Shown here: positions 1,426 through 57,987 of the stretch, piece after piece
How the letters are laid out: each line of letters begins with the position of its first letter
Numbering within the stretch: the first letter of the stretch is position 1
Origin: an uncultured virus (IMG/VR IMGVR_UViG_3300031746_002572)
Taxonomy: Duplodnaviria; Heunggongvirae; Uroviricota; Caudoviricetes
IMG/VR virus record: IMGVR_UViG_3300031746_002572
Length of the DNA: 64,000 bases
Strand: one strand, 5' to 3'
The notes under the pieces: model-generated
What the model saw: only the letters and a program-made list of their open reading frames with translations
Databases searched by the model: none
What the model was told of the DNA's origin: nothing
Program-made: the position numbers and the translations under genes

Positions 1426-1438
1426 TTCATAAATAAAT

Positions 1439-1470
1439 TTGTAATAAGAATATAAATAATTGTATTTATA
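1439..1470 (+). promoter_or_regulatory. Conserved promoter-like motif, copy 1
   Basis: TTGTAATAAG-N11-TTGTATTTATA followed by AAGGAGG and ATG 1486; same spacing in six copies. Confidence 0.75.
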
Positions 1471-5661: not shown

Positions 5662-5733
5662 AAATTATCTGAAAAATTTAAACCGTTTGTTGATAAAGTG
5701 TTAAATAAGGGAATGACAACATATCACTAGTTG
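5662..5733 (+). repeat. 72-bp attI-like array head (exact inverted copy at 57726-57797)
   Basis: Identity ends at the GTTG that starts the first cassette; core GACAAC-ATATCACTA-GTTG. Confidence 0.85.
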
Positions 5734-5770
5734 TGGGAAAGCGGGCTATAAAATTGAAAGGAGCGCGTGA

Positions 5771-6100
5771 ATGACAAAAGAAACTTTGGCGGCAATGTTC
5801 CACGAAACGTATGAGCACCTTGCTCCGGCTTTCGGGTATGTTACCAGAAAATCTACCCGTTGCAATTTTTCTGAGTTGCCGCAAAAAAACAAAGCATTAA
5901 TGATTGCGGTTTGCGGAACAATTCTGAACGCGCTCCAAGATAAGGAATCACCCGCCATCCCACAACAACCGCTTTGTGCTTCGGGCGATGCCAAATTGCC
6001 GCCATTGCCAGATTGTTGTGTGGAATGCCTTGAGGAAAGTATGAAAACTGATGATAATTCGTGTTGTGCTGCACTGCGGCGGCACTTCACAAAGCGGTAA
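5771..6100 (+). CDS. Cassette hypothetical protein; C-terminus encoded by the attC-like hairpin
   Basis: SD AAGGAG; ORF reads through 5960-6100. Confidence 0.7.
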   Translation: MTKETLAAMFHETYEHLAPAFGYVTRKSTRCNFSELPQKNKALMIAVCGTILNALQDKESPAIPQQPLCASGDAKLPPLPDCCVECLEESMKTDDNSCCAALRRHFTKR

Positions 6101-6109
6101 ACGTTGTCT
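5960..6109 (+). repeat. attC-like site
   Basis: CCACAAC...ACCGCTTTGTG / CACAAAGCGGT-AAAC-GTTGTCT. Confidence 0.8.
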
Positions 6110-6152
6110 AAAATAACCGTGCAAGGCCGAGACTGGCGCAGGAGAAAGACAA

Positions 6153-6341
6153 ATGACAAAAGAAAAAGAAGCTATTGAATTATTAAAAGAATGTGAAAAA
6201 GCATTTTTATCATGCGGAAATTGTCCAAATGTTAGACTTGATCCGTTTAATTTAGTTCCGTTTCGTTTGGGTTTTCGCATAGCTACGTTTTTGAAAGACG
6301 AAGATGCGCCAGAGAGCGCGGTTACTTCGGACAACAAATAA
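6153..6341 (+). CDS. Cassette hypothetical protein
   Basis: SD AGGAG; stop inside next attC-like site. Confidence 0.65.
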   Translation: MTKEKEAIELLKECEKAFLSCGNCPNVRLDPFNLVPFRLGFRIATFLKDEDAPESAVTSDNK

Positions 6342-6383
6342 AGGGTGATATTGAAACGATCACCCATTTATAGGACGTTGGTT
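6329..6383 (+). repeat. attC-like site
   Basis: GGACAAC-A-ATAAAGGGTGAT / ATCACCC-A-TTTAT-AGGAC-GTTGGTT, one bulged base. Confidence 0.85.
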
Positions 6384-6431
6384 GAAAGCCTGCCTAATTA
6401 CGGAGCGGGCGCAAAGAAAGGAAAAATTAAA

Positions 6432-6767
6432 ATGGGAATATATCATAGTACGAATATGATAAATAAAAAAATAAGACCAAAGAAAATAAATCTTAATGAT
6501 TATACTGTTGAACAAGCAACCCACAATTTATCATGCAGACATCAAATAGGCACGAGTGGGTTTGATTATACAATGCCATGTATTGTTTTATGGAAAAAAG
6601 GTAGTAATGCAAAAATAATTGTTTTTGGTGAAAGAGCGTGGGCAAATAAAGATTATAAAAAACACATACGATATGTAAACAGGTACAGTATTAAAATAAA
6701 AGATGCGCCCGCCAATATCGGAACGGCAGGCCATCAACCAACAGAGCAAAGTAAGGCGCAAGGCTAA
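6432..6767 (+). CDS. Cassette hypothetical protein ending DAPANIGTAGHQPTEQSKAQG
   Basis: Start reassigned to the ATG after AAGAAAGG. Confidence 0.7.
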   Translation: MGIYHSTNMINKKIRPKKINLNDYTVEQATHNLSCRHQIGTSGFDYTMPCIVLWKKGSNAKIIVFGERAWANKDYKKHIRYVNRYSIKIKDAPANIGTAGHQPTEQSKAQG

Positions 6768-6806
6768 ATTGCGAAGCGCAACTTCTTACTTTGTCGGACG
6801 TTAGGT
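6736..6806 (+). repeat. attC-like site (same core at 10916-10986 and inverted at 57314-57384)
   Basis: AACCAAC...CAAAGTAAG / CTTACTTTG-TCGGAC-GTTAGGT; inner TTGCG-AAG-CGCAA hairpin. Confidence 0.85.
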
Positions 6807-6811
6807 GCAAT

Positions 6812-7678
6812 ATGGCAAATTTTGAAATTATAGGCGCGGGGCAAGACACGGCGCGTCGTGCGCCGAAGATAAATACAATTACGTGCGGGGATTGTCTCGA
6901 AGTAATGCAAACGATACTGGACAAAAGCGTGGATATGGTGCTTTGTGATTTACCGTATGGTACAACACAATGTAAGTGGGATACGGTCATTCCGTTTGCC
7001 CCTCTTTGGGAGCAGTACGATAGGGTTTGCAGGGGGGCGATTGTCCTAACGGGGAGTGAGCCATTTTCAAGTTTATTGCGCGTGTCTAATTTAGCCCTGT
7101 TCAAATATGATTGGATATGGGAAAAATCAAAGGCGACAGGTCATTTAGATGCTAATCGCCGCCCGTTAAAAAAACATGAAACCATTTCTGTATTTGGCGA
7201 TTTGGGATGTTATAACCCCCAAGGGTTAGTCGTAAAAGATAAGCCTACTATAAGCAAGGGCAATAGGGGAAAGAAAGGCGAGGGAAGTAGCGGGGAATGT
7301 TATGGTTTGGCAAATAAAGACGCGGTGCAGACGCATAGTAATTATCCAAAATCAATCATCCCGTTTAATGTGGATATGAAAGCAGAGTTTCATCCAACTC
7401 AAAAACCCGTAGCCCTGTTTGAATATCTTATTCGCACCTACACAGACGAAGGTGATACCGTTCTTGATAACTGTATCGGCTCAGGAACAACCGCTATTGC
7501 CTGTATCAATACTGGTAGGAATTATATAGGAATTGAAAAAGAAGAGAAATACTGCCGGATAGCAGAAGAGCGCATCCATGCGCTAAGAAGCCCCGCGCAG
7601 GACACTAAGGAAATTTGCCATACAGCACCTAACAGCGCAAGCATGCAAATTGCGCAGGTGGAATTAGATTTATTATAG
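6812..7678 (+). CDS. DNA methyltransferase (N6A/N4C, beta class), cassette-borne
   Basis: GDCLEVM, DLPY, HPTQKPVAL, DNCIGSGTT. Confidence 0.92.
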   Translation: MANFEIIGAGQDTARRAPKINTITCGDCLEVMQTILDKSVDMVLCDLPYGTTQCKWDTVIPFAPLWEQYDRVCRGAIVLTGSEPFSSLLRVSNLALFKYDWIWEKSKATGHLDANRRPLKKHETISVFGDLGCYNPQGLVVKDKPTISKGNRGKKGEGSSGECYGLANKDAVQTHSNYPKSIIPFNVDMKAEFHPTQKPVALFEYLIRTYTDEGDTVLDNCIGSGTTAIACINTGRNYIGIEKEEKYCRIAEERIHALRSPAQDTKEICHTAPNSASMQIAQVELDLL

Positions 7679-7711
7679 CGCAATCAGCATGCGTTGCGCG
7701 AACTGTTGAAA
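7627..7711 (+). repeat. attC-like site
   Basis: ACCTAAC-A-GCGCAAGCATGC / GCATGC-G-TTGCGC-GAACT-GTT, bulged G; inner ATTGCGC/GCGCAAT. Confidence 0.85.
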
Positions 7712-7752
7712 GCCTGCCTAATTATGGAGCGGGCGCAAAGAAAGGAAATTAA

Positions 7753-7962
7753 ATGCACACAACGACCGGAGAAATAAAACCTTATTCAGAAGTGGAAAAA
7801 CTTTCGCCAAAAGAACAAAAAAACTTTGTAGAAATTAAGAGGGACTTGTCGGAACAGGAAAAAAATATGCGTCATATTATGCTTTACAGCCCGTGTGGCT
7901 GCGGGTCTGGAAAAAAATTTAAATTTTGTTGCCATGCTCATTTTCTTGGGAAAAAACCATAA
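7753..7962 (+). CDS. SEC-C motif protein
   Basis: SPCGCGSGKKFKFCC. Confidence 0.8.
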   Translation: MHTTTGEIKPYSEVEKLSPKEQKNFVEIKRDLSEQEKNMRHIMLYSPCGCGSGKKFKFCCHAHFLGKKP

Positions 7963-8213
7963 TGGACGGACTTCTTGCTGGTATTGGTGAAAAATTATTG
8001 CCATGTCCGATATGCAACGGCAGAGCAAAACGAACAATGGGTAAAAACGGTGGGTACATAGAATGCGTTGAATGCGGATTGCGGACACGGGATTGCAGAA
8101 AAAACGATAACGAACCAATAGATAACAGGTGGAATAAAAGACATGCGCCCGCAAATATAGGAACGGCAGGCCATCAACCAACTAATAAAGGCCAAAATCA
8201 TGAAGTTGGTTAA
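7962..8213 (+). CDS. Lar-family restriction alleviation-like Zn-ribbon protein
   Basis: LLPCPICNG...IECVECG...RWNKR; ATG overlaps upstream TAA. Confidence 0.65.
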   Translation: MDGLLAGIGEKLLPCPICNGRAKRTMGKNGGYIECVECGLRTRDCRKNDNEPIDNRWNKRHAPANIGTAGHQPTNKGQNHEVG

Positions 8214-8239
8214 AATAAAATTTTGGAGAAACGCTCGCT

Positions 8240-8431
8240 ATGAAATTAAAAATTGAAAAAGATATACAGAAGAAAGACACAATAAAAGAGGATATTAAAA
8301 AAATGGAGATTGGAGATTCTTTTGAACTTACAAAGTATAAAACGTGGCCTCATATTGTTGCTAAAGACATCGGAATTGTAATTGTAGGAATAAAAACAGA
8401 AGCAGGTTATAGATACTGGAGAAAAAAATAG
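8240..8431 (+). CDS. Small putative DNA-binding protein
   Basis: MEIGDSF...GYRYWR; SD GGAG. Confidence 0.55.
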   Translation: MKLKIEKDIQKKDTIKEDIKKMEIGDSFELTKYKTWPHIVAKDIGIVIVGIKTEAGYRYWRKK

Positions 8432-8501
8432 GCTCGCTAATTATAAAATCGTGAAAACCAGTTATTGTAGGCGGCGCGGAAAACCAAGAAAGGAAAACAA
8501 T

Positions 8502-8717
8502 ATGACAGTCCTCGAACTGAAAAGAATGCTGGGAAACTATCCTGATGACATGGAAGTAATTGTTGATAGATGCAGCGACTACACCTCCATTGAGGAAGGC
8601 GAGTGGTCAGTAGTGAAGGCTGTCAAAATCAATTACGGGTTTATGCGATCACACAAGACCATGAGCGATGAGAACAAAGCAAACGAGAAAGAGTATCTGC
8701 ATCTTGAAGGAAATTAA
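8502..8717 (+). CDS. Hypothetical protein
   Basis: MTVLELKRMLGNYPDDMEV; SD AAGAAAGG. Confidence 0.7.
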   Translation: MTVLELKRMLGNYPDDMEVIVDRCSDYTSIEEGEWSVVKAVKINYGFMRSHKTMSDENKANEKEYLHLEGN

Positions 8718-8764
8718 GACCGCATTCGCCGCCGACTATATGGTAAGCGCGGCAAGGAGGTTCT

Positions 8765-8983
8765 GTGGATTCTAACCAGGTTGTCAACACGTTCAACGAG
8801 TTGCGCAGCAATATCGAGGCGTGCGACAAGTCAACGCGAAGTATGCTCCCGGTTATTGCTGGACGGTTACAGCGTGCAACTCAGGATTGTTGCCGTGGCG
8901 AATGGTGTCAGGCGTTGACCGCGTTGAAGCGAGAGCTGCGCAACTGGGACATTATGAAGCAGCAGTGGATAGAGCCGCGCTAA
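8765..8983 (+). CDS. Hypothetical protein
   Basis: GTG start after AAGGAGG; flanked by GCGCGGC / GCCGCGC. Confidence 0.65.
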   Translation: MDSNQVVNTFNELRSNIEACDKSTRSMLPVIAGRLQRATQDCCRGEWCQALTALKRELRNWDIMKQQWIEPR

Positions 8984-9015
8984 AATGCGGAGCGGCGCGA
9001 AGAAAGGAAAATAAC

Positions 9016-9408
9016 ATGAGTGCAGATAATTGGACTTATTGCCCACGGTGCGAAGTAAAGGCGGAAACGGATCGTATTGCCTTTGAAGAAAAGGTTAAAA
9101 AATCGTATGGCAAGGTTTCGGCGGAAGAATATTTGCGGCTAACTGACCAACTTAAAAATCCTAAAAGGCTCGAACAAACACTTCGAGAAGATTACGAACT
9201 TGGAACTAATGAAGGATTTTTTAACGTTTCGTATCGAGCAGGTTGTTCAGTATGTAATTTTAGTTTTGAATTTCATGAGGAAAAAAAGATCGCGCCGCAG
9301 AATAATGCGGAAACGGCCAGCACAGACAAACAACAGCCCCATGCTGCGAGGGCGAAGCGCCACATGCCGGGAATACCGGCACGTCAGCATAGCGCGAACG
9401 TTGGTTGA
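9016..9408 (+). CDS. Hypothetical Zn-binding protein
   Basis: MSADNWTYCPRC...CSVC; SD AAGAAAGG; reads through attC-like site. Confidence 0.7.
   Translation: MSADNWTYCPRCEVKAETDRIAFEEKVKKSYGKVSAEEYLRLTDQLKNPKRLEQTLREDYELGTNEGFFNVSYRAGCSVCNFSFEFHEEKKIAPQNNAETASTDKQQPHAARAKRHMPGIPARQHSANVG
9328..9406 (+). repeat. attC-like site
   Basis: AAACAAC...ATGCTG / CAGCAT...GAAC-GTTGGTT; inner hairpins GGCG/CGCC and TGCCGG/CCGGCA. Confidence 0.75.
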
Positions 9409-9491
9409 AATTTCGTTTTGGCTGTACTATGCGGTTATTAGTAAGTGGTGGTTATTAATTTAGGCGGGCGCGACTACAAAAGGAGGAAAGA

Positions 9492-9737
9492 ATGGAAATT
9501 CTTGAAACGATTTTAAAATGGTTCAAACGATGTGCTGAACCAAATTTAAAGCGGAGATATTCAAGTTGTCCGATCTGTGGAGCAACTTGGTGGGACAACA
9601 AGGAACAACATAATCGTGATTGCTGGATACCGGAATTAGAAAATAAATTAAGAGCGCCCGCCAAAGACAAAAACGGGCAAAACGAAACATCAACCAACAG
9701 CCCTATTTTGCAACCGCAGGAACCGACAGCAACATAG
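9492..9737 (+). CDS. Cassette hypothetical protein (CPIC...H..DC)
   Basis: SD AGGAGG. Confidence 0.7.
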   Translation: MEILETILKWFKRCAEPNLKRRYSSCPICGATWWDNKEQHNRDCWIPELENKLRAPAKDKNGQNETSTNSPILQPQEPTAT

Positions 9738-9751
9738 GGCAAACGTTGTAT
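9692..9751 (+). repeat. attC-like site
   Basis: AACCAAC-A-GCCCTAT / ATAGGGC-AAAC-GTTGTAT. Confidence 0.8.
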
Positions 9752-9783
9752 GCCATTTTGCGCGAACATGAAAGGGGCGACAA

Positions 9784-10068
9784 ATGAATATTAAAATTCT
9801 CGATGCTAAAAAAGAGACATATTGGTATTCACGATTTATTGGGTCCGTGTTTGAAGTTACCGGGAAAGACAGTCCTGCTGGTTATTTTGTTCGACATGAT
9901 GGTTTTGATCAGCAGTATGTTGTTGACAAAGCAGATTGTCGCCCCACGACGAAAGGAACGCGCAAAACGGAGAAGCGTAGCACGGGGGCAGTAGCACATA
10001 CAACTGGCGCTATGCTAAAATGCCCTCATTGTGGAAAGGAAATTCGTATCGTAGGCACATCAGCATAG
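9784..10068 (+). CDS. Cassette hypothetical protein
   Basis: SD AAGGGG; C-terminal CPHC encoded in the hairpin loop. Confidence 0.7.
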   Translation: MNIKILDAKKETYWYSRFIGSVFEVTGKDSPAGYFVRHDGFDQQYVVDKADCRPTTKGTRKTEKRSTGAVAHTTGAMLKCPHCGKEIRIVGTSA

Positions 10069-10083
10069 CGCCATACGTTGGTG
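9998..10083 (+). repeat. attC-like site
   Basis: ATACAAC-TGGCGCTATGCT / AGCATAGCGCCA-TAC-GTTGGTG. Confidence 0.85.
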
Positions 10084-10123
10084 TAAAAATCGGCGGGTGG
10101 AATGCGCGCCAAGAAAGGAAATT

Positions 10124-10405
10124 ATGGAAAAAGATAAAGAGCCTTTTGCGTATCAATATGACCATGATAATGGGAACGATTTTATTATAACTCGCGCAAG
10201 TAACAGCAACACGTATTTTGGCAAAGAAGCAAACGATTTAATGTTTGAAATGTATAAAAGGCAAAGGAATAATGATTTTTATCCTAACGAATTTAATAAC
10301 CAGTTATTGATTGAATTGAATAACAGAAAAGAATGGGCGCGCTCAAATAGATATGTTTTGGCCGCCGATTCATCAACCAACAGCCCTTATATGGCGCAAG
10401 GCTAA
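10124..10405 (+). CDS. Cassette hypothetical protein
   Basis: ATG after AAGAAAGG. Confidence 0.65.
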   Translation: MEKDKEPFAYQYDHDNGNDFIITRASNSNTYFGKEANDLMFEMYKRQRNNDFYPNEFNNQLLIELNNRKEWARSNRYVLAADSSTNSPYMAQG

Positions 10406-10439
10406 ATGAGTACACTTCATATAAGGGCATACGTTGGTT
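10375..10439 (+). repeat. attC-like site
   Basis: AACCAAC-A-GCCCTTATATG / CATATAAGGGC-ATAC-GTTGGTT. Confidence 0.85.
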
Positions 10440-10483
10440 GAAAGCCTGCCTAATTACGGAGCGGGCGCAGGAGAATTAAAGAA

Positions 10484-10633
10484 ATGACAAGACTTGAAGA
10501 CATAAAAAAGAATCTGCTTATTAAACACGAATTATCCGTACTGGATATTAATTGGAAATGTTTAAAGCAAGGGGAATTGGGAAAATTGATTTCATGGGAA
10601 ATTAAAAAAGACAAAGGAAGGAAAATAAAATGA
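10484..10633 (+). CDS. Small cassette protein (49 aa, below ORF-track cutoff)
   Basis: SD AGGAG; MTRLEDIKK...; ATGA overlap with next gene. Confidence 0.55.
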   Translation: MTRLEDIKKNLLIKHELSVLDINWKCLKQGELGKLISWEIKKDKGRKIK

Positions 10634-10947
10634 CAAATGAATTAAATTTACGCCAGGATGGATTACCATTATTCCATTCGGAAGACAGATTGTTTTTTGG
10701 CAGAAAAGAAAATGGCGATGTTATCATTATTAAAAAAGGAGTAGATGCTGGGGGTGGTTTTGAAGAGATACTGTTTAAACAAATTATTCCAAACGATATT
10801 TGGTGTTCTGCTGTAGCGTCTGTTTCAAAATTGGGAGAAGAACAGGGGCGATGGTACAAGGCAACGGAATTTCATAACCAAGATGCGCCCGCGAATATCG
10901 GAACGGCAGGCCATCAACCAACAGAGCAAAGTAAGGCGCAAGGCTAA
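10630..10947 (+). CDS. Cassette hypothetical protein ending DAPANIGTAGHQPTEQSKAQG
   Basis: SD AAGGA. Confidence 0.7.
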   Translation: MTNELNLRQDGLPLFHSEDRLFFGRKENGDVIIIKKGVDAGGGFEEILFKQIIPNDIWCSAVASVSKLGEEQGRWYKATEFHNQDAPANIGTAGHQPTEQSKAQG

Positions 10948-10986
10948 ATTGCGAAGCGCAACTTCTTACTTTGTCGGACGTTGTAT
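10916..10986 (+). repeat. attC-like site
   Basis: Identical to 6736-6802 from AACCAAC to GTT. Confidence 0.85.
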
Positions 10987-11028
10987 GAAAGCCGGTTGCG
11001 AAAACCATTTATAGGAGCGGCGCAAATT

Positions 11029-11493
11029 ATGACAGAAAAGGAAATGGAAGAAAAAAATAAAAAGCACCTCGAAAGAGTAAAATTATATGAAAACACAATT
11101 ATTAATAATAAAAACAGGTTGTTTCTGTGTCCGTTTTGTGGAGACTTCCCAATTTTAGAAAGAAACAAACATTCGGGGAGTTTTATAAATATAGAATATC
11201 ATGCGAGATGTGATTGTATGCAAATTTCAACACCTTATTACAGAAATATTGAACTTGTTATAAAAAAATGGAATACCCGCGCCGCAATTGCGGAATCGCC
11301 CGCCATCATACAACAACCGCTTTGTGCTTCGGAGGCCAAATTGCCAAGTTTTGATGAGGTATTTAAAATGGTCAAGCAACATCTTTGTGCTGTTCGTGAT
11401 TCCGGAACTCTTTGGAAAAATATTGGCGATGATGAAATTATAAAAAACACTTATTTAGCTATTGAAAAACTTGGCAACTTCACAAAGTGGTAA
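11029..11493 (+). CDS. Lar-like Zn-ribbon protein with attC-encoded C-terminal extension
   Basis: LCPFCG...ARCDC...KKWNTR; tail ESPAIIQQPLCAS shared with 5771-6100. Confidence 0.6.
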   Translation: MTEKEMEEKNKKHLERVKLYENTIINNKNRLFLCPFCGDFPILERNKHSGSFINIEYHARCDCMQISTPYYRNIELVIKKWNTRAAIAESPAIIQQPLCASEAKLPSFDEVFKMVKQHLCAVRDSGTLWKNIGDDEIIKNTYLAIEKLGNFTKW

Positions 11494-11502
11494 ACGTTAG
11501 CC
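11308..11502 (+). repeat. attC-like site with long coding loop
   Basis: ATACAAC...ACCGCTTTGTG..TTGCCAAGTTTT / AAAACTTGGCAA..CACAAAGTGGT-AAAC-GTTAGCC. Confidence 0.8.
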
Positions 11503-11548
11503 AAAATAAACCGCGCTGAGTTTATAGTTCGGCGGCAATGGAGGAACA

Positions 11549-11821
11549 ATGGATTTGCATGTTTTATTTGGATCGGCCCTCTGCTACACTAAGGAATTTA
11601 CTATAAACGGTGTGGCCGCATCAGACAAGGATTTCGGCGAGAAATATGATCGATCACCCGATGATGCAGAACTGTATGGGTGCGGGGACATGCGGTTTAC
11701 TCGCAAGCCATCTCTCGCCGAAATTCTTTTGAAGTATGCTATAACCGAGGGTGAGTATTCAACCGTTTGTGATAAGTTGGAAGAGGGCCTTTCTTTTGGA
11801 TCGTGCGGATGGTGTGTTTAA
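11549..11821 (+). CDS. Cassette hypothetical protein (C-terminal CGWC)
   Basis: SD GGAGG. Confidence 0.7.
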   Translation: MDLHVLFGSALCYTKEFTINGVAASDKDFGEKYDRSPDDAELYGCGDMRFTRKPSLAEILLKYAITEGEYSTVCDKLEEGLSFGSCGWCV

Positions 11822-11865
11822 TTGTCCGCCGCCGAAAGAAAGATAATCGATGCGCGGTTTACATC

Positions 11866-11926
11866 GGCTAACAGCCAAAGCCGCGCAATGTCAAGGCCCA
11901 CTGCGGGCGTTTGGCGAACGTTGGGC
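11866..11926 (+). repeat. attC-like site
   Basis: GGCTAAC-A-GCCAAAGCC / GGC-G-TTTGGC-GAAC-GTTGGGC. Confidence 0.85.
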
Positions 11927-11984
11927 ACAATTCGCCCGCAATACATGGCCCCATCGTGGGGCCTAAGAATTAAGGAGAGGACAA

Positions 11985-12428
11985 TTGATTAAAAATTACA
12001 CAAGCGGTGTTCCAGCACAAAAAAGCGTTATGAAGATAGAAGAACTTCTGGCAATTCATGGAGCGCAAAGCGTAGTGAAGCAATACGAAAACCAGAAGTT
12101 AATTGCAGTTTCCTTTTTTATGCAGATCACCGGGAAGCTCATCCCATTTCGTCTACCCGCTAGAATATCTCAAGTGGAAAAAGTTTTAAAAGCAGAGGTC
12201 AAAAAACCACACAAGGGGACTCTTGACAGAATCACCGAACAATCGGAAAGAACAGCGTGGAAAATAATTTTGGATTGGGTAGAAGCGCAAATGGCGCTGG
12301 TTGAATTGCAACAGGCGGAAATGGCAGAGATATTCATGCCATATATGTGGAGTGAAAAATTAGGTCAATCTTTTTATCAAATTGCCGTTGAAAAAGGTTT
12401 TAATCTTTTGGAGGCACCAAAGAAATGA
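11985..12428 (+). CDS. Conserved phage-type hypothetical protein
   Basis: TTG start after AAGGAGAGG; IKNYTS...RTAWKIILDWVEAQMA. Confidence 0.7.
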   Translation: MIKNYTSGVPAQKSVMKIEELLAIHGAQSVVKQYENQKLIAVSFFMQITGKLIPFRLPARISQVEKVLKAEVKKPHKGTLDRITEQSERTAWKIILDWVEAQMALVELQQAEMAEIFMPYMWSEKLGQSFYQIAVEKGFNLLEAPKK

Positions 12429-12477
12429 AACATACGCATAGTTGTGGTAAAACCGCGCAAAGAAAGGAGTAACAACA

Positions 12478-12699
12478 TTGAAAAATAAATTTTGGTACAT
12501 AAAAGAAAGACATAATCCGCAATTCAAACAACCGTATTACGTTGCCCTTGGAAACATATCGAAGAAACAAGCAAAAGCGTATGAAAGTTCAATATACGGG
12601 GATAATACCGTTTTTAGCTTCGACTCGGAAGAAAGGTACAGAGAAGAAATTAAGAGATTAAAAAATGCGCGGTTCAACGTACAACAGGCCGCTTTATGA
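12478..12699 (+). CDS. Cassette hypothetical protein
   Basis: TTG start after AAGGAG; flanked by AACCGCGCA / TGCGCGGTT. Confidence 0.65.
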   Translation: MKNKFWYIKERHNPQFKQPYYVALGNISKKQAKAYESSIYGDNTVFSFDSEERYREEIKRLKNARFNVQQAAL

Positions 12700-12839
12700 A
12701 ACTATCGCATCACAAAGCGATGAACGCATGCGGTACGGGGCAAAAGCCCCAAATTGCCGAAGCGTCAACTTCCGCATAGCGAAAACGGTTGAAAGCCTGC
12801 CTAATTACGGAGCGGGCGCAAAGAAAGGAAAATTAAAGA

Positions 12840-13304
12840 ATGGTAACAAATAAAAATTCTCATATTTGGTGCAGGCTTTCTGGCCCAGGCCGTGGGGACT
12901 GTGAACATTTTATCGGATTGCCGGACAAAATAGATGATAGTGCAACCGATGAATATGGTATTCCATTTGGTTGGTGTGAATGGTGCTGGTTAGTTTTTAA
13001 ATTTGAAGAATTAAATAAAGTTTACAAAAATGCAAAGGCTGTCGTACAACATTGGAATGAATTTGGGCCAGAGTATGGACATGAAGAGCATGTTGATAGC
13101 TTGGAAAAGTCAATTAAAAAATACCATGAAGCAATTGGAACTAAAGATGCGCCCGCCAATCTTAGAACGGCAGGCCATCAACCAACAGAGCAAAGTAAGA
13201 CGCAGCCAGAAATTTGCCCTCATTATTTTGAGGCGACCGATGGGGTACATGCTTGCGTGGTAGGTCAATGTGCGTGTCATGGCAACCTATCTGGCGTGCG
13301 GTGA
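12840..13304 (+). CDS. Cassette hypothetical protein containing DAPANLRTAGHQPTEQSK
   Basis: Same leader/trailer shell as 6377, 7705, 10433 and 57725. Confidence 0.7.
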   Translation: MVTNKNSHIWCRLSGPGRGDCEHFIGLPDKIDDSATDEYGIPFGWCEWCWLVFKFEELNKVYKNAKAVVQHWNEFGPEYGHEEHVDSLEKSIKKYHEAIGTKDAPANLRTAGHQPTEQSKTQPEICPHYFEATDGVHACVVGQCACHGNLSGVR

Positions 13305-13323
13305 ACATAAGGAGGCGGCGCAA

Positions 13324-13674
13324 ATGACAAAAACAAAACATCATTTTGGAAGATTAGAATTTAAAAGCAACAACCTAAAGTTACTTGATAAATTAAAACT
13401 ATTTTTTTACCTTTTGTTTAATAAAAAAATTGTGTTTGTAAATATAGAATTGATAGTAGAAAGCGGCATGATAGAAAATGAACTTGCTTTACTTTGTGAA
13501 GTTGCTTCGCCGGGAATGTTTCCAACCACTGTTCTTACATCAAATATTCTTTGCAATTGGCCTCGTGAACGTATTGTAAGATTTGCAAAGCATCTTCTTG
13601 GTGATAAGTGCCAGGAATGCCGCGCTTGTGAAAACAAGGAAGCGATTGCCACAACCGAGGAAAGGAAAACATGA
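13324..13674 (+). CDS. Hypothetical protein
   Basis: ATG after AAGGAGG. Confidence 0.6.
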   Translation: MTKTKHHFGRLEFKSNNLKLLDKLKLFFYLLFNKKIVFVNIELIVESGMIENELALLCEVASPGMFPTTVLTSNILCNWPRERIVRFAKHLLGDKCQECRACENKEAIATTEERKT

Positions 13675-13856
13675 AAATCTCTATTGCCGAACACATACAA
13701 GAAATTGATAGATTAGTAAAGCGATATGGAGTTGAGTTTGATTATTATTCGTGGAACGAAATAAAAACAGCACTACAAACGCGATGTCCAAATTTAATAG
13801 AAGATAAAAACAAAATATGGAGATGTAAAATTATAATTGAAGATGCGCAAAAATAA
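13671..13856 (+). CDS. Hypothetical protein
   Basis: ATGA overlap; SD AAGGA. Confidence 0.6.
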   Translation: MKISIAEHIQEIDRLVKRYGVEFDYYSWNEIKTALQTRCPNLIEDKNKIWRCKIIIEDAQK

Positions 13857-13876
13857 TGAAGTTTGGCATAGATGTT

Positions 13877-13997
13877 TAATAACCGTATGGCGAAGCAAAT
13901 TTGGCAACCAACGGAAATAGGAATTGTACCAGCAATGAACCTATTACTTATAGCCGTTGTCTGGTGTTGCCAAACTTCGCCATACTCTATGTTAATT
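13877..13997 (+). repeat. attC-like site
   Basis: TAATAAC-C-GTATGGCGAAG..TTTGGCAAC / GTTGCCAAA-CTTCGCCATAC-TCTAT-GTT. Confidence 0.8.
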
Positions 13998-14028
13998 GGT
14001 GGAAACACGGCACGAAGGAGGCCGCACA

Positions 14029-14199
14029 ATGAAAAAAACAAAAGACGATATTGAACTTTCGATTCGAGCAGCAAAACTTGGGAAAAAAGTTCTTACCTTG
14101 GTTGCTATTACAGATAAGGGTCTTGCCTTGCTTATATTGAAGGAAATTGCTGAAATATTAAAAGAAACTGAAAAATGGCTAAAATCATGCGCAGCTTAA
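14029..14199 (+). CDS. Last cassette hypothetical protein
   Basis: SD AAGGAGG; followed by trailer and a truncated attC-like site to ~14289. Confidence 0.6.
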   Translation: MKKTKDDIELSIRAAKLGKKVLTLVAITDKGLALLILKEIAEILKETEKWLKSCAA

Positions 14200-14325
14200 T
14201 TAGATTTTTGGCGTACCGTGCATCCATCAACAAACAAAGTAAGGTGCAGGGCTAAATTGCCGAAGCGTAAACTTCGGCATAGGTTGAATGTTATTAATAG
14301 GTAAAAGAATAATTCAACAGATATT

Positions 14326-16616: not shown

Positions 16617-16618
16617 AT

Positions 16619-16650
16619 TAGTAATAAGGAAAAGAATAATTGTATTTATA
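16619..16650 (+). promoter_or_regulatory. Promoter-like motif, copy 3
   Basis: TAGTAATAAG-N11-TTGTATTTATA, then AAGGAG and ATG 16667. Confidence 0.7.
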
Positions 16651-35638: not shown

Positions 35639-37507
35639 ATGTTTATAATCAATAGTCTTAAAATTCATAATTTTATAAAGTTTAAAGACGTAGAAATTAA
35701 TATGCGTAATCAGGGTTTAGTGTGGTTAAAGGGAGAGAACTTTGATGAACCAGAGAAGGGGAAAACAGGAGCCGGAAAAAGTCTTTTTGGTGATGCAATA
35801 CATTGGTTATTATCTGGCAATACTACAAGACCTGTGTTGGCGACAAGAATAGTAGGAAATAATGATAAATCGTGTTTTGTCGAAGCAGAAATAGAGATTC
35901 AGAATGAAAAGATTAAAATAATACGTTATCGCAATGATAAAAAATATGGTAGCGGTGTGCGTATTATTTCTCATGGCAATGATGTAAGTCATCGTAATTT
36001 ATCAGAATCGCAGGATCGTATAAATAAAATTATAGGTTGTTCTTTTGATTTATTCAGACTTTCTTGTTTTTATAACACGTCTAGTAAATATCATTTTTCA
36101 TATATGAGTTCTGTTGAACGTGCGAAGATTTTAGATGAAATTATAGGCACGGATGAAGCTAATGTAACCGATAGAATTAAAAAAGTGAATATTTTATTAA
36201 AACAAAAAAATGAATTGTTAGTTTCTATTCAAAACTCACTATATAATAATGAAAATAAGATATTAAAATTACGTGAAGTGATTATAGATAATGAAAAATT
36301 GCAAGATAATAAGATTTATGAAGAACAAATAGAAAAAATAAAGTCGGAAATAACAATATTATCTATTTCAAAATTATCTGTTTTACTAGACACATTGTTG
36401 AAATTGAAAAAAAAATCTAATGTTCTTGAAGAGAAACAAAAAGAATTGGATTTAATTACCAATACCGTAAATAAATTGGCTAATCGTATAGAACTAGTTA
36501 ATTATAAATTATCAGATTATGATAAAAAAATTAGTAATGTTAGTTTAAATGTCAAAGCGAATATAGGGGAACTATGTGATGGTTGTGGAAATATAATCAC
36601 TGAAAATTCATTAGAGTGTCTAAAATCTAAAAGGCGCGATGAAATATTAAAAATTAATTTAGAAAAAGCAAGTGTTGAAAAAGAGTTGATAATTTTAAAA
36701 GATAATTTAGATATACAGGAGAATAAGTTAAAAAAGTTTAGTGAACTGGGTGTTGATGAAAATATAGGAATTGATATAAATAACGTAGAAAATGAGATAA
36801 GGAAGGAAAAAGAAAAAGAAAGACTATTGGAAAATAAAAAGAAAGACCTTGTTGAATATGAATTAAAATATAGGTCTTATAAAAGTGATATAGAAAAAAT
36901 TATTGAAAAAAATAAAAATGAAATTACAATAGTAAAAAAAGACATTAATTTTTTAAATATAAAACAGGCGCGTATAGAAATAGAAATAGAAAAATTAAAA
37001 ACTATTGGTGATTTTTATGGGCCATCGGGTTATAGACCATTAGTAATGAGTCATTATTCTCCTGTTTTATCCGATGCCGCTAATTTTTATCTTTCTGAAT
37101 TTATAGGGACAAAGGAAAAAATAATAATAGATTCAAAGACACAATTAGCAAGTGGGGAAATAAGAGATAAAGTTGATGTGAATATTTATGATAATGGACA
37201 ATTGAAATATTTTCCAGAAGAATTTAGTGAAGGCGAGAGATGTTCGATTGATTTAGCACTAAATTTTGGTATTATGCGTATAGCTGCAATGAGAGCCGCA
37301 AAGGATTTTAATTTTATGTGGTTTGATGAAATCACTAATGGATTATCCGAAAGTCTTATTAATAGATTAATAACTATTGTTCGTAATAAGATAATGAGAG
37401 AAAATATGACGGTTATAATGACCAGTCATCATCCTCTTAACCCGGATTTATTTGATTCTGTATGGACAGCAGTAAAGGAAAATGGTATATGCAGAATAAA
37501 ACAATAA
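35639..37507 (+). CDS. sbcC: SbcC/Rad50 SMC ATPase
   Basis: GKTGAGKS, CDGC hook, FSEGE signature, FDE, TSH. Confidence 0.92.
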   Translation: MFIINSLKIHNFIKFKDVEINMRNQGLVWLKGENFDEPEKGKTGAGKSLFGDAIHWLLSGNTTRPVLATRIVGNNDKSCFVEAEIEIQNEKIKIIRYRNDKKYGSGVRIISHGNDVSHRNLSESQDRINKIIGCSFDLFRLSCFYNTSSKYHFSYMSSVERAKILDEIIGTDEANVTDRIKKVNILLKQKNELLVSIQNSLYNNENKILKLREVIIDNEKLQDNKIYEEQIEKIKSEITILSISKLSVLLDTLLKLKKKSNVLEEKQKELDLITNTVNKLANRIELVNYKLSDYDKKISNVSLNVKANIGELCDGCGNIITENSLECLKSKRRDEILKINLEKASVEKELIILKDNLDIQENKLKKFSELGVDENIGIDINNVENEIRKEKEKERLLENKKKDLVEYELKYRSYKSDIEKIIEKNKNEITIVKKDINFLNIKQARIEIEIEKLKTIGDFYGPSGYRPLVMSHYSPVLSDAANFYLSEFIGTKEKIIIDSKTQLASGEIRDKVDVNIYDNGQLKYFPEEFSEGERCSIDLALNFGIMRIAAMRAAKDFNFMWFDEITNGLSESLINRLITIVRNKIMRENMTVIMTSHHPLNPDLFDSVWTAVKENGICRIKQ

Positions 37508-38503: not shown

Positions 38504-38513
38504 AAGGCAAATA

Positions 38514-40238: not shown

Positions 40239-40263
40239 TATAAAATGGACAAGGAGATAAAAA

Positions 40264-41226: not shown

Positions 41227-41253
41227 TTGATTTAATAGATAGAAAGGATAAAG

Positions 41254-45039: not shown

Positions 45040-45041
45040 AA

Positions 45042-56744: not shown

Positions 56745-57287
56745 TTACTTCCATATTTTTCCTTTCTTTTGTGCCACTCTTAAAATTATTTCGGTATTAC
56801 CTTTATATCCTCGCTGATAATATAAGCAACCAACAGGGAAACCAAAAGCGAATCCATGTTGCTGTCCTCCACCCATGTATAATATTTCTTTCAGACCCCC
56901 GTACTGTTCTACCATTTGCATTATCTTATTGCTCTTTAATGCTTTAGCGACGGGAACAAAAAGAACGATATTATCCGCAACCATAAAACAATGCTCTAAA
57001 AAATTATCGTAAATAGAATATGGTGGGTTAGTCATTATCCAATCAACCTTTTTATTCCACTTAAAAAAATCTATTCCATCCTCTATTTCACAACGATATT
57101 TTGGCTGGTTGAATAAATCGAAAAAAACATTTTTACCTGCGGCTGGTTCTAAAATCGTTCCTTTTGGTTTATACCAACCATAAATAAATTTTGCAGTTTC
57201 TTTTTTTGTCATCACGCTATCTGATGCAGTAGCAACTCCGCTTTTATTTGCTTTTGTTGGTTTTCCTTTTCTGGCGCAAAAATTCAT
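56745..57287 (-). CDS. DNA adenine methyltransferase, cassette-borne
   Basis: ILEPAAG, DFF, TNPPYS. Confidence 0.85.
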   Translation of the reverse strand: MNFCARKGKPTKANKSGVATASDSVMTKKETAKFIYGWYKPKGTILEPAAGKNVFFDLFNQPKYRCEIEDGIDFFKWNKKVDWIMTNPPYSIYDNFLEHCFMVADNIVLFVPVAKALKSNKIMQMVEQYGGLKEILYMGGGQQHGFAFGFPVGCLYYQRGYKGNTEIILRVAQKKGKIWK

Positions 57288-57313
57288 ATTAAAAGTTCCT
57301 CAAATTTTATTTC

Positions 57314-57384
57314 TGCCAACGTATGATAAAGTAAGAAGTTGCGCTTCGCAATTTAGCCTTGCGCCTTACTTTGCTCTGTTGGTT
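57314..57384 (-). repeat. attC-like site
   Basis: - strand AACCAAC-AGAGCAAAGTAAG...CTTACTTT-ATCATAC-GTTGGCA. Confidence 0.85.
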
Positions 57385-57679
57385 GATGGCCTGCCGTTCC
57401 GATATTCGCGGGCGCATGTCCTTGTAAAAATTCCTCAATTGCTTCACGACATTGATTGCATACACTTCTTGCCCTTTCATTGTTCGCGCAATCAAGGGCA
57501 TTCCTTAATAATTCTCTTCCTCTTCTGCCTGATAATCTTTCATGCTCAAATACTTTTGTTGCTTCTTCGGCTTCTAAATTTGCAGCATCCCAAGCTAAAG
57601 ACGCAACCGTTAACCTATGGGCTACTTCTCTCTCAGGACATTCAAAAACCAAAGAGTCTAAATATTCTTTTTTTGTCAT
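57353..57679 (-). CDS. Cassette hypothetical protein ending HAPANIGTAGHQPTEQSKAQG
   Basis: ATG after AGGAG. Confidence 0.7.
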   Translation of the reverse strand: MTKKEYLDSLVFECPEREVAHRLTVASLAWDAANLEAEEATKVFEHERLSGRRGRELLRNALDCANNERARSVCNQCREAIEEFLQGHAPANIGTAGHQPTEQSKAQG

Positions 57680-57725
57680 TCTTCGATTCTCCTGCGCCCG
57701 CTCCGTAATTAGGCAGGCTTTCAAC

Positions 57726-57797
57726 CAACTAGTGATATGTTGTCATTCCCTTATTTAACACTTTATCAACAAACGGTTTAAATTTTTCAGATAATTT
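57726..57797 (-). repeat. 72-bp attI-like array head (inverted copy of 5662-5733)
   Basis: Exact reverse complement. Confidence 0.85.
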
Positions 57798-57950
57798 AAA
57801 ACCATCTCGAATCAATTGATTAATTACAGCATATCTAATGTATTTTGATCTTGTTCTACATTTAATTTTACTTGCCATAATAAGTGCTTTATCTGCCAAT
57901 TCAGGTTCAAGATAAATTTTGTAGTTTTTTCTTAATGAATTCGTATCCAT
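57729..57950 (-). CDS. Ribbon-helix-helix (CopG-like) protein whose 3' end is the array head
   Basis: YKIYLEPELADKA...TRSKYIRYAV; the G of its TAG is the G of the first GTT. Confidence 0.7.
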   Translation of the reverse strand: MDTNSLRKNYKIYLEPELADKALIMASKIKCRTRSKYIRYAVINQLIRDGFKLSEKFKPFVDKVLNKGMTTYH

Positions 57951-57955
57951 ATATC

Positions 57956-57987
57956 TATAAATACAATTATTCAAAACCTTATTGCAA
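57956..57987 (-). promoter_or_regulatory. Promoter-like motif, copy 5, upstream of RHH gene and array C
   Basis: TTGCAATAAG-N11-TTGTATTTATA, 5 bp before ATG. Confidence 0.75.

What the first reader, a model, noticed from the sequence alone, without database searches (positions are those of the whole stretch)
5662..14290. Phage accessory genes organised as an integron-like cassette array
Seen: about 25 co-oriented small genes punctuated by hairpins that open with AAC and close with GTT (5960, 6329, 6736, 7627, 9328, 9692, 9998, 10375, 10916, 11308, 11866, 13877; degenerate at 8176, 12679, 13180, ~14230). Hairpin sequences differ, but the structure is kept: short unpaired spacer, stem, often one bulged base. 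Established: this is how attC sites are recognised by IntI. The cargo is phage-type rather than typical bacterial cassette content, and the array leads directly into the replication operon. No tyrosine recombinase is in the window. Inference: a shuffleable phage gene pool driven by a host or distantly encoded integrase.
Basis: partly seen in the sequence, partly recalled or inferred. Interest (0 to 1): 0.92.

Follow-up and report, generated by a model that had tools for sequence, protein, structure and literature searches.

The report
Phage integron-like gene cassette array
A large uncultured phage keeps about two dozen small accessory genes as swappable cassettes bounded by folded-DNA sites, laid out like a bacterial integron but with mirror-shaped sites, a small DNA-binding gene as docking point and no integrase in sight.

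Summary
Window 5730-14289 is a GC-rich island (41% against 29%) of about 23 co-oriented small genes cut into 16 cassettes by AAC...GTT hairpin sites. A site detector gave 12 hits on the gene strand, 10 in the array, against a mean of 1.6 in shuffles.

It behaves like an integron array. Sequence relatedness breaks at the GTT. Each site's 5' box matches its own cassette's 5' end, not the neighbouring box (56/75 against 37/75 positions; 0 of 20,000 permutations). This was replicated in an unrelated, complete 254-kb T4-like phage.

The sites are not canonical attC. Their unpaired bases sit on the opposite arm, they carry an outer clamp stem, and models of the two site classes do not detect each other.

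Arrays start at the stop codon of a small, probably ribbon-helix-helix gene found in three genomes.

No recombinase is found in the window or in the complete relative.

CALINs in phages are published (PMC9892861). This scan's unchecked notes flag similar arrays on at least 36 other genomes. Verdict: new variant of a known kind.

The parts
5662..5733 (+). Leader: an exact copy of the last 72 nt of the platform gene, including the docking junction CACTA|GTTG. The main array starts at G 5730.
   Evidence: 72 consecutive invariant columns against the reverse complement of 57726-57797. pair I3; junction alignment.
5730..14289 (+). Main cassette array: 16 cassettes and about 23 genes, GC 0.411 against 0.290 and 0.287 in the flanks.
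5960..6109 (+). Site S1 (150 nt, long coding loop); its 5' box CCACAAC matches the cassette's own 5' end GTTGTGG.
6329..6383 (+). Site S2.
6736..6806 (+). Site S3, the same type as S10 and S17m; the 103-nt repeat ends at GAC|GTT.
   Evidence: (D1).
6812..7678 (+). Cassette gene: N6/N4 DNA methyltransferase. Its 5' and 3' ends are shared by many other cassettes in sediment samples.
   Evidence: PF01555, 1.7e-27; depth 95-486 at its ends against about 15 elsewhere.
7627..7711 (+). Site S4, with a damaged 3' box (CTGTT); its 5' box CACCTAAC complements the cassette's own start GTTAGGTG.
   Evidence: The intact homologue L002:938-1019 is found.
7962..8213 (+). Cassette gene: Lar-like restriction alleviation protein.
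   Evidence: PF14354; phrog_599.
8176..8211 (+). Site S5, degenerate: boxes are present but there is no inner stem.
9328..9406 (+). Site S6; the upstream gene reads through it to a stop at 9408.
9692..9751 (+). Site S7.
9998..10083 (+). Site S8 (12-bp perfect stem).
10375..10439 (+). Site S9.
10916..10986 (+). Site S10 (99% identical to S3 up to the GTT).
11029..11493 (+). Cassette gene: second Lar-like protein.
11308..11502 (+). Site S11 (195 nt, long coding loop; the same type as S1).
   Evidence: (D9, D12).
11866..11926 (+). Site S12.
12672..12794 (+). Site S13, degenerate (GGTT in place of GTTGG).
13147..13204 (+). S14 remnant: only the left half of an S3-type site, now inside ORF 12840-13304.
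   Evidence: D1, D2; I5.
13877..13997 (+). Site S15 (11-bp stem, spacers of 1 and 5 nt).
14229..14289 (+). Site S16, the terminal site, with its 3' stem lost. The array ends at ...CATAG|GTTGAAT and AT-rich phage DNA resumes.
57729..57974 (-). Platform gene (73-81 aa, probable ribbon-helix-helix DNA binder); its stop codon TAG overlaps the docking junction.
57310..57729 (-). Single cassette at the second docking site: the conserved 5' module, ORF 57353-57679 and site S17m (57314-57384). GC 0.431 against 0.27-0.30 around it.
   Evidence: (I1, I2, I6, I8).
56745..57287 (-). DNA methyltransferase gene just after that cassette. It is AT-rich, and it is unclear whether it is a cassette.
   Evidence: phrog_799, 7e-19.

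Best explanation
This is an integron-like gene-cassette system of a phage-specific kind. Each unit is a small gene, often with a shared 5' leader and ribosome-binding site, followed by an imperfect hairpin site of the form ...AAC, stem, variable and partly coding loop, stem, 3-6 unpaired bases, GTT.... I think cassettes leave the array as circles and re-enter at the GTT of another site, or at the docking site that overlaps the stop codon of a small, probably ribbon-helix-helix gene. A promoter upstream of that gene may drive transcription into the array (by eye; not tested). The enzyme is most likely a recombinase that reads the shape of the folded single strand, of the tyrosine-recombinase type, and it is supplied in trans because neither this window nor a complete related phage encodes one. 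My odds for its source are: a small Xer-like recombinase carried by other phages, about 45%; the host's integron integrase, about 35%; something else, about 20%. The cargo that can be named counters restriction (a DNA methyltransferase and two Lar-like proteins), so the array probably serves as an exchangeable kit of host-takeover and anti-defence genes shared among unrelated large phages. Shown here: the site architecture, the breakpoint at GTT, the complementarity of each cassette's own ends, the shared docking gene, shared cassettes in genomes of 29%, 33% and 57% GC, and the absence of a recombinase gene. Inferred: circular intermediates, single-strand folding, the enzyme class, and the selective role.
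For: (1) Architecture: 12 fairly intact and 4 degenerate sites lie after co-oriented genes, and sites are enriched over shuffles (12 against a mean of 1.6). (2) Breakpoint at GTT. The 103-nt repeat 6700-6802 = 10880-10982 ends at GAC|GTT. Contig L002 has the same methylase cassette with a different left neighbour, and the two diverge at GTT. Contigs from other sediment samples break at 6799, 9403 and 10983. Among 42 sites, the 3' half of the hairpin and the right flank are both conserved in 1 pair, but only one of the two is conserved in 18 pairs. (3) The 5' box of each site complements the 5' end of its own cassette at 56/75 positions (7 of 15 sites perfect), against 37/75 (1 of 15) for the adjacent box; 0 of 20,000 permutations reach 56. 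In phage G001 the figures are 69/92 (13 of 23 perfect) against 52/92 (4 of 23), again 0 of 20,000. Own-end complementarity extends to about 20-23 nt. (4) Docking: the identical 72-nt leader precedes both arrays in the window. Homologous platform genes end at ...TAG|TTGG before cassettes in L001 (47% identity, E 8e-21) and in G001. (5) The family model finds 29 of its 30 matches in these arrays or on the related contigs, 18 of them not in its training set. (6) No recombinase: 87 window ORFs; a six-frame search of complete G001 for PF00589 and TIGR02249 found none, while PF00589 was found above cut-off in all 14 control genomes; 229 G001 ORFs hold no tyrosine, serine, HUH or DDE recombinase family at E <= 1e-5. 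(7) In print, attC sites carried by phages were recombined by IntI1 (PMC9892861, section 3.4).
Against: No recombinase was identified, so the mechanism rests on anatomy alone. The sites differ from genuine attC: extra unpaired bases are on the 3' arm of the gene strand in 14 of 14 sites (difference -2 to -6), against 0 to +3 in the other direction in the 14 of 19 genuine sites whose predicted fold closed the whole site. By the published strand-choice rules (PMC5027507), that shape would favour the other strand and a crossover at the 5' AAC. Some exchange on that side is indeed seen: on the left side 4 pairs are coupled and 6 uncoupled, and one joint links 7638 to 9375. The one joint that looks like a circle (7701 to 6798; one contig, depth 4.4, 34 letters on the shorter side) could equally be two methylase cassettes in tandem in another genome. 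The second site cluster in G001 gave no signal in the own-end test (9/16 against 7/16; 4978 of 20,000). The window is only 64 kb of a 116-kb contig, so a recombinase could lie outside it. The ORF screen of G001 used ATG starts, ORFs of at least 110 aa and 20-kb pieces, so short or boundary-spanning genes were not covered.
Confidence: 0.6

Rival explanations
1. This is an ordinary CALIN: genuine bacterial integron cassettes with attC sites, captured by the phage from a host integron and moved only by the host's IntI, as described for other virulent phages.
For: It has the same overall layout and the same kind of cargo (an N6_N4 methyltransferase) as the published phage CALINs. It has the AAC/GTT core, 3' boxes such as GTTAGGT that fit GTTRRRY, a crossover at GTT and own-end complementarity. 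My canonical model is narrow: it gave only one weak hit in the three CALIN phages fetched, so it did not detect the sites tested in TJE1 and P12002L. Its silence on the window is therefore weak evidence.
Against: The arm asymmetry is opposite to genuine attC in 14 of 14 sites. The sites have an outer clamp stem. The two site models fail to detect each other. The family model finds nothing in three published CALIN phages. Two pattern scans of one genome for each of 185,579 prokaryote species found neither the cassette leader nor the platform gene. Docking is next to a phage gene rather than next to intI/attI, in three genomes of very different GC content.
Confidence: 0.2
2. The shuffling is PeSL-like. 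The repeated modules are merely patches of homology, and the phage's own general recombination proteins exchange genes between them, with no site-specific enzyme.
For: Both phages encode RecA/UvsX-type proteins, SbcCD-like proteins and other recombination proteins but no integrase. T4-type phages shuffle ORFans this way and make mini-circles (PMC2839356, passages). Several cassettes share 36-45-nt modules. G001 is T4-like.
Against: The sites are heterogeneous in sequence and share little beyond AAC and GTT, yet breakpoints fall at the GTT. Box pairs differ between cassettes but stay complementary within a cassette (GTTGTAAGA with TCTTACAAC, GTTAGCC with GGCTAAC, GTTAGGTG with CACCTAAC), which homology-driven exchange neither produces nor preserves. 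Promoter-like and terminator-like motifs are not enriched (26 against 24 +/- 4.8, and 14 against 9.9 +/- 3.0).
Confidence: 0.08
3. The units are moved as single strands by an HUH-type (IS200/IS605-like) enzyme that recognises hairpins, so the array is a pile-up of hairpin-associated transposable units.
For: The sites are hairpins with cleavage implied at the foot of the stem. The conserved unpaired (A/G/T)AC lies just before the GTT. Elements without their own enzyme are common in that family (recalled, not from a call).
Against: No Y1/HUH family was found among 229 ORFs of complete G001 or 87 window ORFs. Complementarity of a unit's two ends across the gene and a single shared docking site are not features of those elements (recalled).
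Confidence: 0.05
4. The hairpins are only regulatory or structural RNA/DNA elements (attenuators, processing sites or mRNA stabilisers) inherited with the genes, and there is no cassette mobility.
For: The hairpins sit at gene ends. The 5' leader module and the preceding gene's 3' end could pair in a polycistronic RNA (by reading).
Against: The same cassettes occur with different neighbours in the window, on three metagenome contigs, in an unrelated phage and in four other sediment samples. There is no T-run after the stems and no enrichment of terminator-like motifs. All 11 sites S1-S11 contain the stop codon of the upstream gene.
Confidence: 0.03

Closest known systems
Clusters of attC sites lacking an integrase (CALINs) in virulent phages (Qi et al. 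2023, PMC9892861; I read sections 2.1, 3 part 1 and 3.4, and only listed the supplement)
   Same: Both are co-oriented cassettes in a phage with no integrase and with DNA methyltransferase cargo, and both have an AAC/GTT core with the crossover at G|TT.
   Different: In the one published array whose size I saw, TJE1 has 3 sites and 4 ORFs (each CALIN needs at least 2 sites), and the sites were detected by tools for canonical attC. Here there are 16 and at least 23 cassettes. The sites have mirror asymmetry and an outer clamp stem. The array docks at a conserved phage gene. The family model finds no site in three of the published phages (P12002L 48.0 of 48.7 kb, MW202573 30.0 of 34.6 kb, and TJE1 48.0 of 49.2 kb were searched).
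Sedentary chromosomal integrons (for example Vibrio and Shewanella types; here the phage-borne copies L004 and L005)
   Same: Both have long arrays of small genes of unknown function, site families that are similar within an array, and cassette ends that are complementary to each other.
   Different: There is no intI or attI platform. The genuine sites have a symmetric 3/3 unpaired spacer, a 5-bp helix and single-base bulges on the 5' arm. The sites here have 0-4 against 3-6 unpaired bases and an unbroken stem of 7-12 bp.
PeSLs of T4-type phages (PMC2839356 passages; PMC4122927 abstract)
   Same: Both shuffle small ORFan genes in the plastic regions of large phages without an integrase. Mini-circles were shown experimentally for PeSLs, and one of the two phages here is T4-like.
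   Different: PeSLs are a conserved promoter plus a terminator stem-loop and recombine by homology, with variable crossover points. The sites here have no promoter, are heterogeneous in sequence and break at a fixed GTT.
Single-strand hairpin integration by XerCD (CTX-type phages), named in PMC5027507 as the only other tyrosine recombinases that use both single- and double-stranded substrates
   Same: In both, a folded single strand would act as the substrate for a host tyrosine recombinase, and the phage needs no integrase of its own.
   Different: Those elements integrate whole phage genomes at dif and use sequence-specific arms. Here there are many small cassettes with diverse stems, and I made no test for dif-like arms.

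Membership tests
Integron-type cassette array (works like) | Co-oriented, mostly single-gene units, each ending in an imperfect inverted-repeat site | tested here: met
   16 units, 12 with a fairly intact site. All 11 sites S1-S11 contain the stop codon of the upstream gene.
Integron-type cassette array (works like) | Exchange point at the conserved GTT of the 3' box | tested here: met
   (1 pair coupled against 18 uncoupled across the GTT). The resolution is the stretch C-G-T-T, not a single bond.
Integron-type cassette array (works like) | The bases after the GTT at a cassette's 5' end belong to that cassette's own site (a circular permutation) | tested here: met
   56/75 against 37/75, 0 of 20,000; 69/92 against 52/92, 0 of 20,000. 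This does not tell which side of the hairpin is cut.
Integron-type cassette array (works like) | Free circular cassettes | tested here: inconclusive
   one contig joins 7701 to 6798 (depth 4.4, 34 letters on the shorter side); it is a circle or a tandem pair.
Canonical attC site | Boxes RYYYAAC and GTTRRRY, complementary to each other | tested here: inconclusive
   AAC and GTT are always present. The 3' boxes GTTAGGT, GTTGGTT, GTTGTAT, GTTGTCT, GTTAGCC and GTTGGGC fit GTTRRRY fully or with 1-2 departures.
Canonical attC site | Unpaired central spacer of 5-6 bases on each arm (PMC5027507) | tested here: not met
   0-6 bases on the 5' arm against 3-9 on the 3' arm, most often 1 against 4. Genuine sites parsed the same way give 3 and 3.
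Canonical attC site | Extrahelical bases on the L'' arm (the 5' arm of the gene strand) | tested here: not met
   the excess is on the other arm in 14 of 14 sites. In genuine sites the excess is 0 to +3 on the L'' arm in the 14 of 19 that folded whole.
Canonical attC site | Length of 57-141 bp with a variable terminal structure | tested here: inconclusive
   Lengths are 55-195 nt; 9 of the 12 fairly intact main-array sites fall within the range.
Canonical attC site | Detected by a covariance model of genuine attC sites | tested here: inconclusive
   Model R2, built from 13 Vibrio-type and Shewanella-type sites, gave 0 matches at E <= 1 in the window, G001 and L001-L003, and 35 in L004/L005. 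But R2 gave only one weak hit in three published CALIN phages, so it is narrow. IntegronFinder's own model was not available.
Canonical attC site | Recombined by IntI | not testable with these tools
   This needs the attC x attI assay.
Complete integron | An intI gene next to attI and a promoter | tested here: not met
   No PF00589 or TIGR02249 match in 87 window ORFs or in complete G001. The window is 64 kb of a 116-kb contig, so absence from the whole phage is not shown.
PeSL | A conserved sigma-70-type early promoter next to a terminator stem-loop in each repeat | tested here: not met
   promoter-like sites 26 against 24 +/- 4.8 and terminator-like sites 14 against 9.9 +/- 3.0. None recurs at the sites.
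Ribbon-helix-helix DNA-binding proteins (platform gene) | The strand-helix-helix fold | tested here: inconclusive
   No Pfam match at E <= 1, no PDB sequence match and no Foldseek match at E <= 0.001. VIA-align: nearly all of the 50 rows listed are RHH proteins, with Z 3.0-4.7 and, in the RHH rows, rmsd mostly 1.8-3.5 A over 41-54 residues. The Atlas's nearest models are Arc/CopG-type, TM 0.52-0.63.

The most novel reading that the evidence does not exclude
A phage-specific 'mirror integron': a cassette-exchange network that links unrelated large phages (a DnaE-type phage at 29% GC, a T4-like jumbo phage at 33% GC and a 57%-GC element). It has its own docking gene (a small ribbon-helix-helix protein whose stop codon is the insertion point) and folded sites whose asymmetry is the mirror image of attC and which carry an outer clamp stem. 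It is served in trans by a non-IntI recombinase carried by only some members of the network, and it stocks anti-restriction and other host-takeover genes.
Probability: 0.45. Interest if true: 0.85.

Novelty: new variant of a known kind. Interest (0 to 1): 0.68.

Why it matters
Integrons are the textbook bacterial device for stockpiling and reshuffling genes. A parallel device in virulent phages would be a ready-made catalogue of candidate anti-defence genes, especially one with its own site geometry and docking gene, with arrays of 16 to more than 23 cassettes, and with cassettes shared between unrelated phages. It would also explain part of the mosaicism of large phage genomes. It offers a natural test of which structural features of folded recombination sites decide strand choice, because these sites carry the asymmetry on the opposite arm while still breaking at the GTT. 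And it poses a concrete open question, namely which enzyme moves the cassettes when a complete 254-kb phage genome carries none, that can be tackled with standard recombination assays.

Tried and rejected
Exact scans of viral contigs for the two conserved arms found nothing, not even the window itself.

Related-locus searches in viral contigs with the DnaC-like loader and the two-sequence platform alignment found no relatives. A hand-made degenerate pattern then found one. Cultured phages share only the methyltransferase with the array and nothing with the replication region; the DnaE protein has only distant relatives at about 28-31% identity.

Rigid perfect-stem scans were too noisy to show enrichment. 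A first MAFFT alignment of nine sites (A2) put the stems in inconsistent registers and was not used for a model.

The own-end test on G001's second cluster was uninformative (4 sites). In that script the first junction index was off by one, which lowers the 'own' score slightly.

I tested the lead that flavobacterial phage gene runs belong to this system. Phage mymlan6-1 (L024) has no family site at E <= 10, and its neighbouring 381-aa protein has no Pfam family. The 342-aa gene beside the platform gene has no Pfam or PHROG match and no recombinase hallmarks by eye.

For the platform protein, Pfam, PDB sequence and Foldseek searches gave nothing significant. The leader holds no convincing promoter on the gene strand in the consensus scan. 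Parts of the array without contig cover in runs X2-X4 are not interpreted. I did not open the supplementary file of PMC9892861 (it was only listed); it may hold the site coordinates that would allow a better canonical model.

Full report
**What the window is.** The 64-kb window looks like part of a large, uncultured virulent phage. It holds helicases, a DnaC-like loader, a DnaB-like helicase, a primase, a DnaE-type polymerase, RecA-like and SbcCD-like proteins, RuvC, and a cluster for sugar and nonulosonic-acid synthesis. It has no tRNA genes. No whole genome is held for it, and its contig is 116,007 bp long. Cultured phages share only a methyltransferase with the flagged region. The region 5730-14289 has 41.1% GC, against 29.0% and 28.7% on its two sides.

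- On the + strand I count 25 ATG ORFs of at least 40 aa, about 23 of them plausible.
- They are cut into 16 units by sites with one plan: a 5' box ending in AAC; 0-4 unpaired bases (most often a single A); a stem of 7-12 bp; a variable loop; the return stem; 3-6 unpaired bases ending in AC; then GTT and a 3' box.
- Fifteen sites folded with bottom-strand z-scores of -1.8 to -7.3.
- A detector anchored on the AC|GTT junction gave 12 hits on the + strand, 10 of them in the array, against 0-4 (mean 1.6) in ten shuffles that kept local composition. It gave 3 hits on the - strand.
- Cruder perfect-stem scans did not beat shuffles.
- All 11 sites S1-S11 contain the stop codon of the upstream gene, so the sites are partly coding.
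- The cargo that can be named is an N6/N4 DNA methyltransferase and two Lar-like restriction-alleviation proteins; the rest has no family.

**A second locus and a docking gene.**
- On the - strand at 57310-57729 lies one more cassette of the same family.
- The 72 nt before it are identical to 5662-5733, the stretch just before the main array. Identity stops at CACTA|GTTG, and the DNA further upstream is unrelated.
- At the second locus these 72 nt are the 3' end of a small gene (57729-57974, 73-81 aa) whose stop codon TAG overlaps the junction. The main array therefore starts at a duplicated fragment of that gene.
- A homologous gene (47% identity, E 8e-21) ends at ...GGGTAG|TTGG on metagenome contig L001, which has 57% GC. 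It is followed by the identical cassette leader.
- The family is small: 27 clusters among 5.8 billion, including the window's own, none with a name or a Pfam family.
- Its predicted structure (pLDDT 76.8) aligns best with ribbon-helix-helix DNA binders: nearly all of the 50 listed rows, Z 3.0-4.7. The Atlas leads agree. Foldseek and the sequence searches are silent. I call it a probable ribbon-helix-helix protein.

**An independent second phage.**
- A degenerate pattern for the most conserved block of the platform protein found one viral contig, L006.
- Its record, G001, is a complete 253,664-bp genome with terminal repeats and a CheckV completeness of 100%. It is T4-like: Gp23, Gp20, gp32, UvsW, UvsY and a family B polymerase.
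- Its platform gene ends at ...AACTAG|TTGG and is followed by a GC-rich array (46% against 33%).
- The detector finds 23 sites at 150.1-157.6 kb on the gene strand and a second cluster of 5 at 129.6-131.2 kb. In total it finds 35 hits on that strand, against 8 on the other strand and 6-14 per strand in shuffles.
- The window and G001 share only 7 proteins at E < 1e-4: general replication and repair proteins, methyltransferases, a glycosyltransferase and the platform protein. At the DNA level they share only cassette pieces and the leader.

**Where exchange happens.**
- The 103-nt repeat 6700-6802 = 10880-10982 ends at GAC|GTT, with different sequence after it.
- Contig L002 carries the window's methylase cassette and the next cassette but has a different left neighbour, and the two diverge at GTT|AGGTG.
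- One sediment run holds 98% of the stretch and is probably its source. Four runs from other studies hold 6-7% each.
- Laid on the array, their contigs carry single cassettes in other contexts, with breaks at 6799, 9403 and 10983, that is, at or next to the GTT. They also show many cassettes that share only the two ends of the methylase gene (depth 95-486 against about 15).
- Over 42 sites from both phages and two contigs, the 3' half of the hairpin and the right flank were both conserved in 1 pair and singly conserved in 18 pairs. On the left side the figures were 4 and 6.
- So GTT is the main breakpoint, the hairpin mostly travels with the upstream gene as in integrons, and some exchange also occurs at the AAC.

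**The integron-type signature.**
- If cassettes pass through a circle and recombine inside the site, the bases after the GTT at a cassette's 5' end belong to that cassette's own site. They should then complement the bases before its AAC, and not those of the adjacent box.
- In the window, own ends match at 56 of 75 positions (7 of 15 sites perfect) and adjacent boxes at 37 of 75 (1 of 15). Permuted junctions give 36.9 +/- 3.6, and 0 of 20,000 reach 56.
- In G001, own ends match at 69 of 92 (13 of 23 perfect) against 52 of 92 (4 of 23), again 0 of 20,000.
- The complementarity runs on for about 20-23 nt: GTT plus 5 nt, a conserved 3-nt mismatch, then 8-12 further pairs. For the methylase cassette 21 of the first 23 positions match.
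- This test shows that exchange happens within the site. It does not show on which side.

**Not canonical attC.**
- The published definition (PMC5027507, introduction) requires 5-6 unpaired spacer bases on each arm and extrahelical bases on the L'' arm.
- I parsed genuine sites from two phage-borne integrons that have annotated integron integrases (L004 and L005) with the same script. They show 3 and 3 unpaired bases, a 5-bp helix and single-base bulges on the 5' arm. The excess on that arm is 0 to +3 in the 14 of 19 sites whose predicted fold closed the whole site.
- All 14 sites of this family have the excess on the other arm, -2 to -6.
- A covariance model of the family (R1) gave 30 matches at E <= 1 in 405,932 bases. 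Of these, 29 were in the arrays or related contigs, 18 of them not in its training set, and none was in L004 or L005.
- A model of genuine sites (R2) gave 35 matches, all in L004 or L005.
- R1 found nothing in three published CALIN phages. R2 found only one weak match there, so R2 is narrow and its silence on the window is weak evidence.

**The enzyme is missing.**
- No tyrosine recombinase occurs among 87 window ORFs, including all 49 of at least 150 aa.
- A six-frame search of complete G001 found none, while PF00589 was found above its cut-off in all 14 control genomes.
- Among 229 G001 ORFs of at least 110 aa there is no tyrosine, serine, HUH or DDE recombinase family at E <= 1e-5, only homing-type nucleases and T4-type recombination proteins.
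- I therefore think the recombinase acts in trans.

**Known work and earlier notes.**
- Qi et al. 2023 (PMC9892861) reported 17 CALINs in 10,705 phage genomes and recombination of phage sites by IntI1, and noted methyltransferase cargo. The general idea is therefore in print.
- PeSLs of T4-type phages (PMC2839356 passages, PMC4122927 abstract) are a functional analogue without an integrase, but they work by homology between promoter-terminator repeats.
- My literature searches listed nothing that describes this site class, the clamp stem or the docking gene. I judged most of those papers from the listings only.
- This scan's earlier notes are unchecked AI notes. They flag similar phage arrays on at least 36 other genomes, with 'mirror' or unusual site geometry, clamp stems, and a small Xer-like recombinase beside some arrays.
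- I confirmed the clamp and the geometry on this DNA. I could not test the recombinase claim, and one attempt on a flavobacterial phage found nothing.

**Verdict.** This is a real integron-like cassette array and a new variant of a known kind. The mechanism is inferred from anatomy, and the enzyme is unknown.

Noticed in passing
window 1438-1470, 16618-16650 and 57956-57988 (inverted): A repeated AT-rich intergenic motif of about 33 nt (82-85% match), one copy just upstream of the platform gene. It is possibly this phage's own promoter or regulatory motif, and the copy at 57956-57988 could drive the platform gene and the cassette behind it.
   Followed up: no
window 37462-52952: A long + strand cluster for sugar and nonulosonic-acid synthesis and transfer: NeuB, a CMP-type cytidylyltransferase, an aminotransferase, a radical SAM/SPASM protein, several glycosyltransferases, methyltransferases and an epimerase. 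Such a cluster is unusual in a phage.
   Followed up: no
window about 55.6-56.7 kb: Gene orientation and GC skew both flip here. The two docking sites lie on opposite strands on either side of this point, each co-oriented with its neighbours.
   Followed up: no
window 6655-6985 and 7317-7647: The first ~70-90 nt and the last ~100 nt of the methyltransferase cassette are 6-30 times over-represented in contigs of three sediment runs, with joints that skip the ~700-nt middle. A family of methylase cassettes therefore shares its ends but has different cores (contig L002).
   Followed up: partly
window 5944-6109 and 11292-11502: Two sites of one type have 150- and 195-nt spans whose loops encode Cys-rich C-terminal protein segments. 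A variant in run X2 lacks 83 nt of the first loop.
   Followed up: no
window 6693-6742, 8133-8182, 10873-10922, 13137-13186 and 57378-57423 (-): Five different genes end in the same ~45-nt module, which gives them a shared C-terminal peptide (...DAPANIGTAGHQPT...) encoded by the outer arm of the site.
   Followed up: partly
window 8205-9400 and 12788-13991: Two units hold 3-4 genes each with no site between them, although the inner genes keep the GC-rich leader and ribosome-binding module. They are probably cassettes fused by loss of sites.
   Followed up: no
G001 (L016:18617-19141; L010:12726-16229; L010:12258-12710): The T4-like relative encodes a Tad6-type Thoeris inhibitor, a ribonucleotide reductase with an intein, and a TnsA-N-like endonuclease.
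   Followed up: no
G001 129.6-131.2 kb (L013): A second, smaller cluster of family sites lies in another GC-rich island with no platform gene nearby.
   Followed up: partly
L003:1779-1919: A third phage-like metagenome contig (39% GC) has a single family site followed by the identical cassette leader, so the family also occurs as single insertions.
   Followed up: partly
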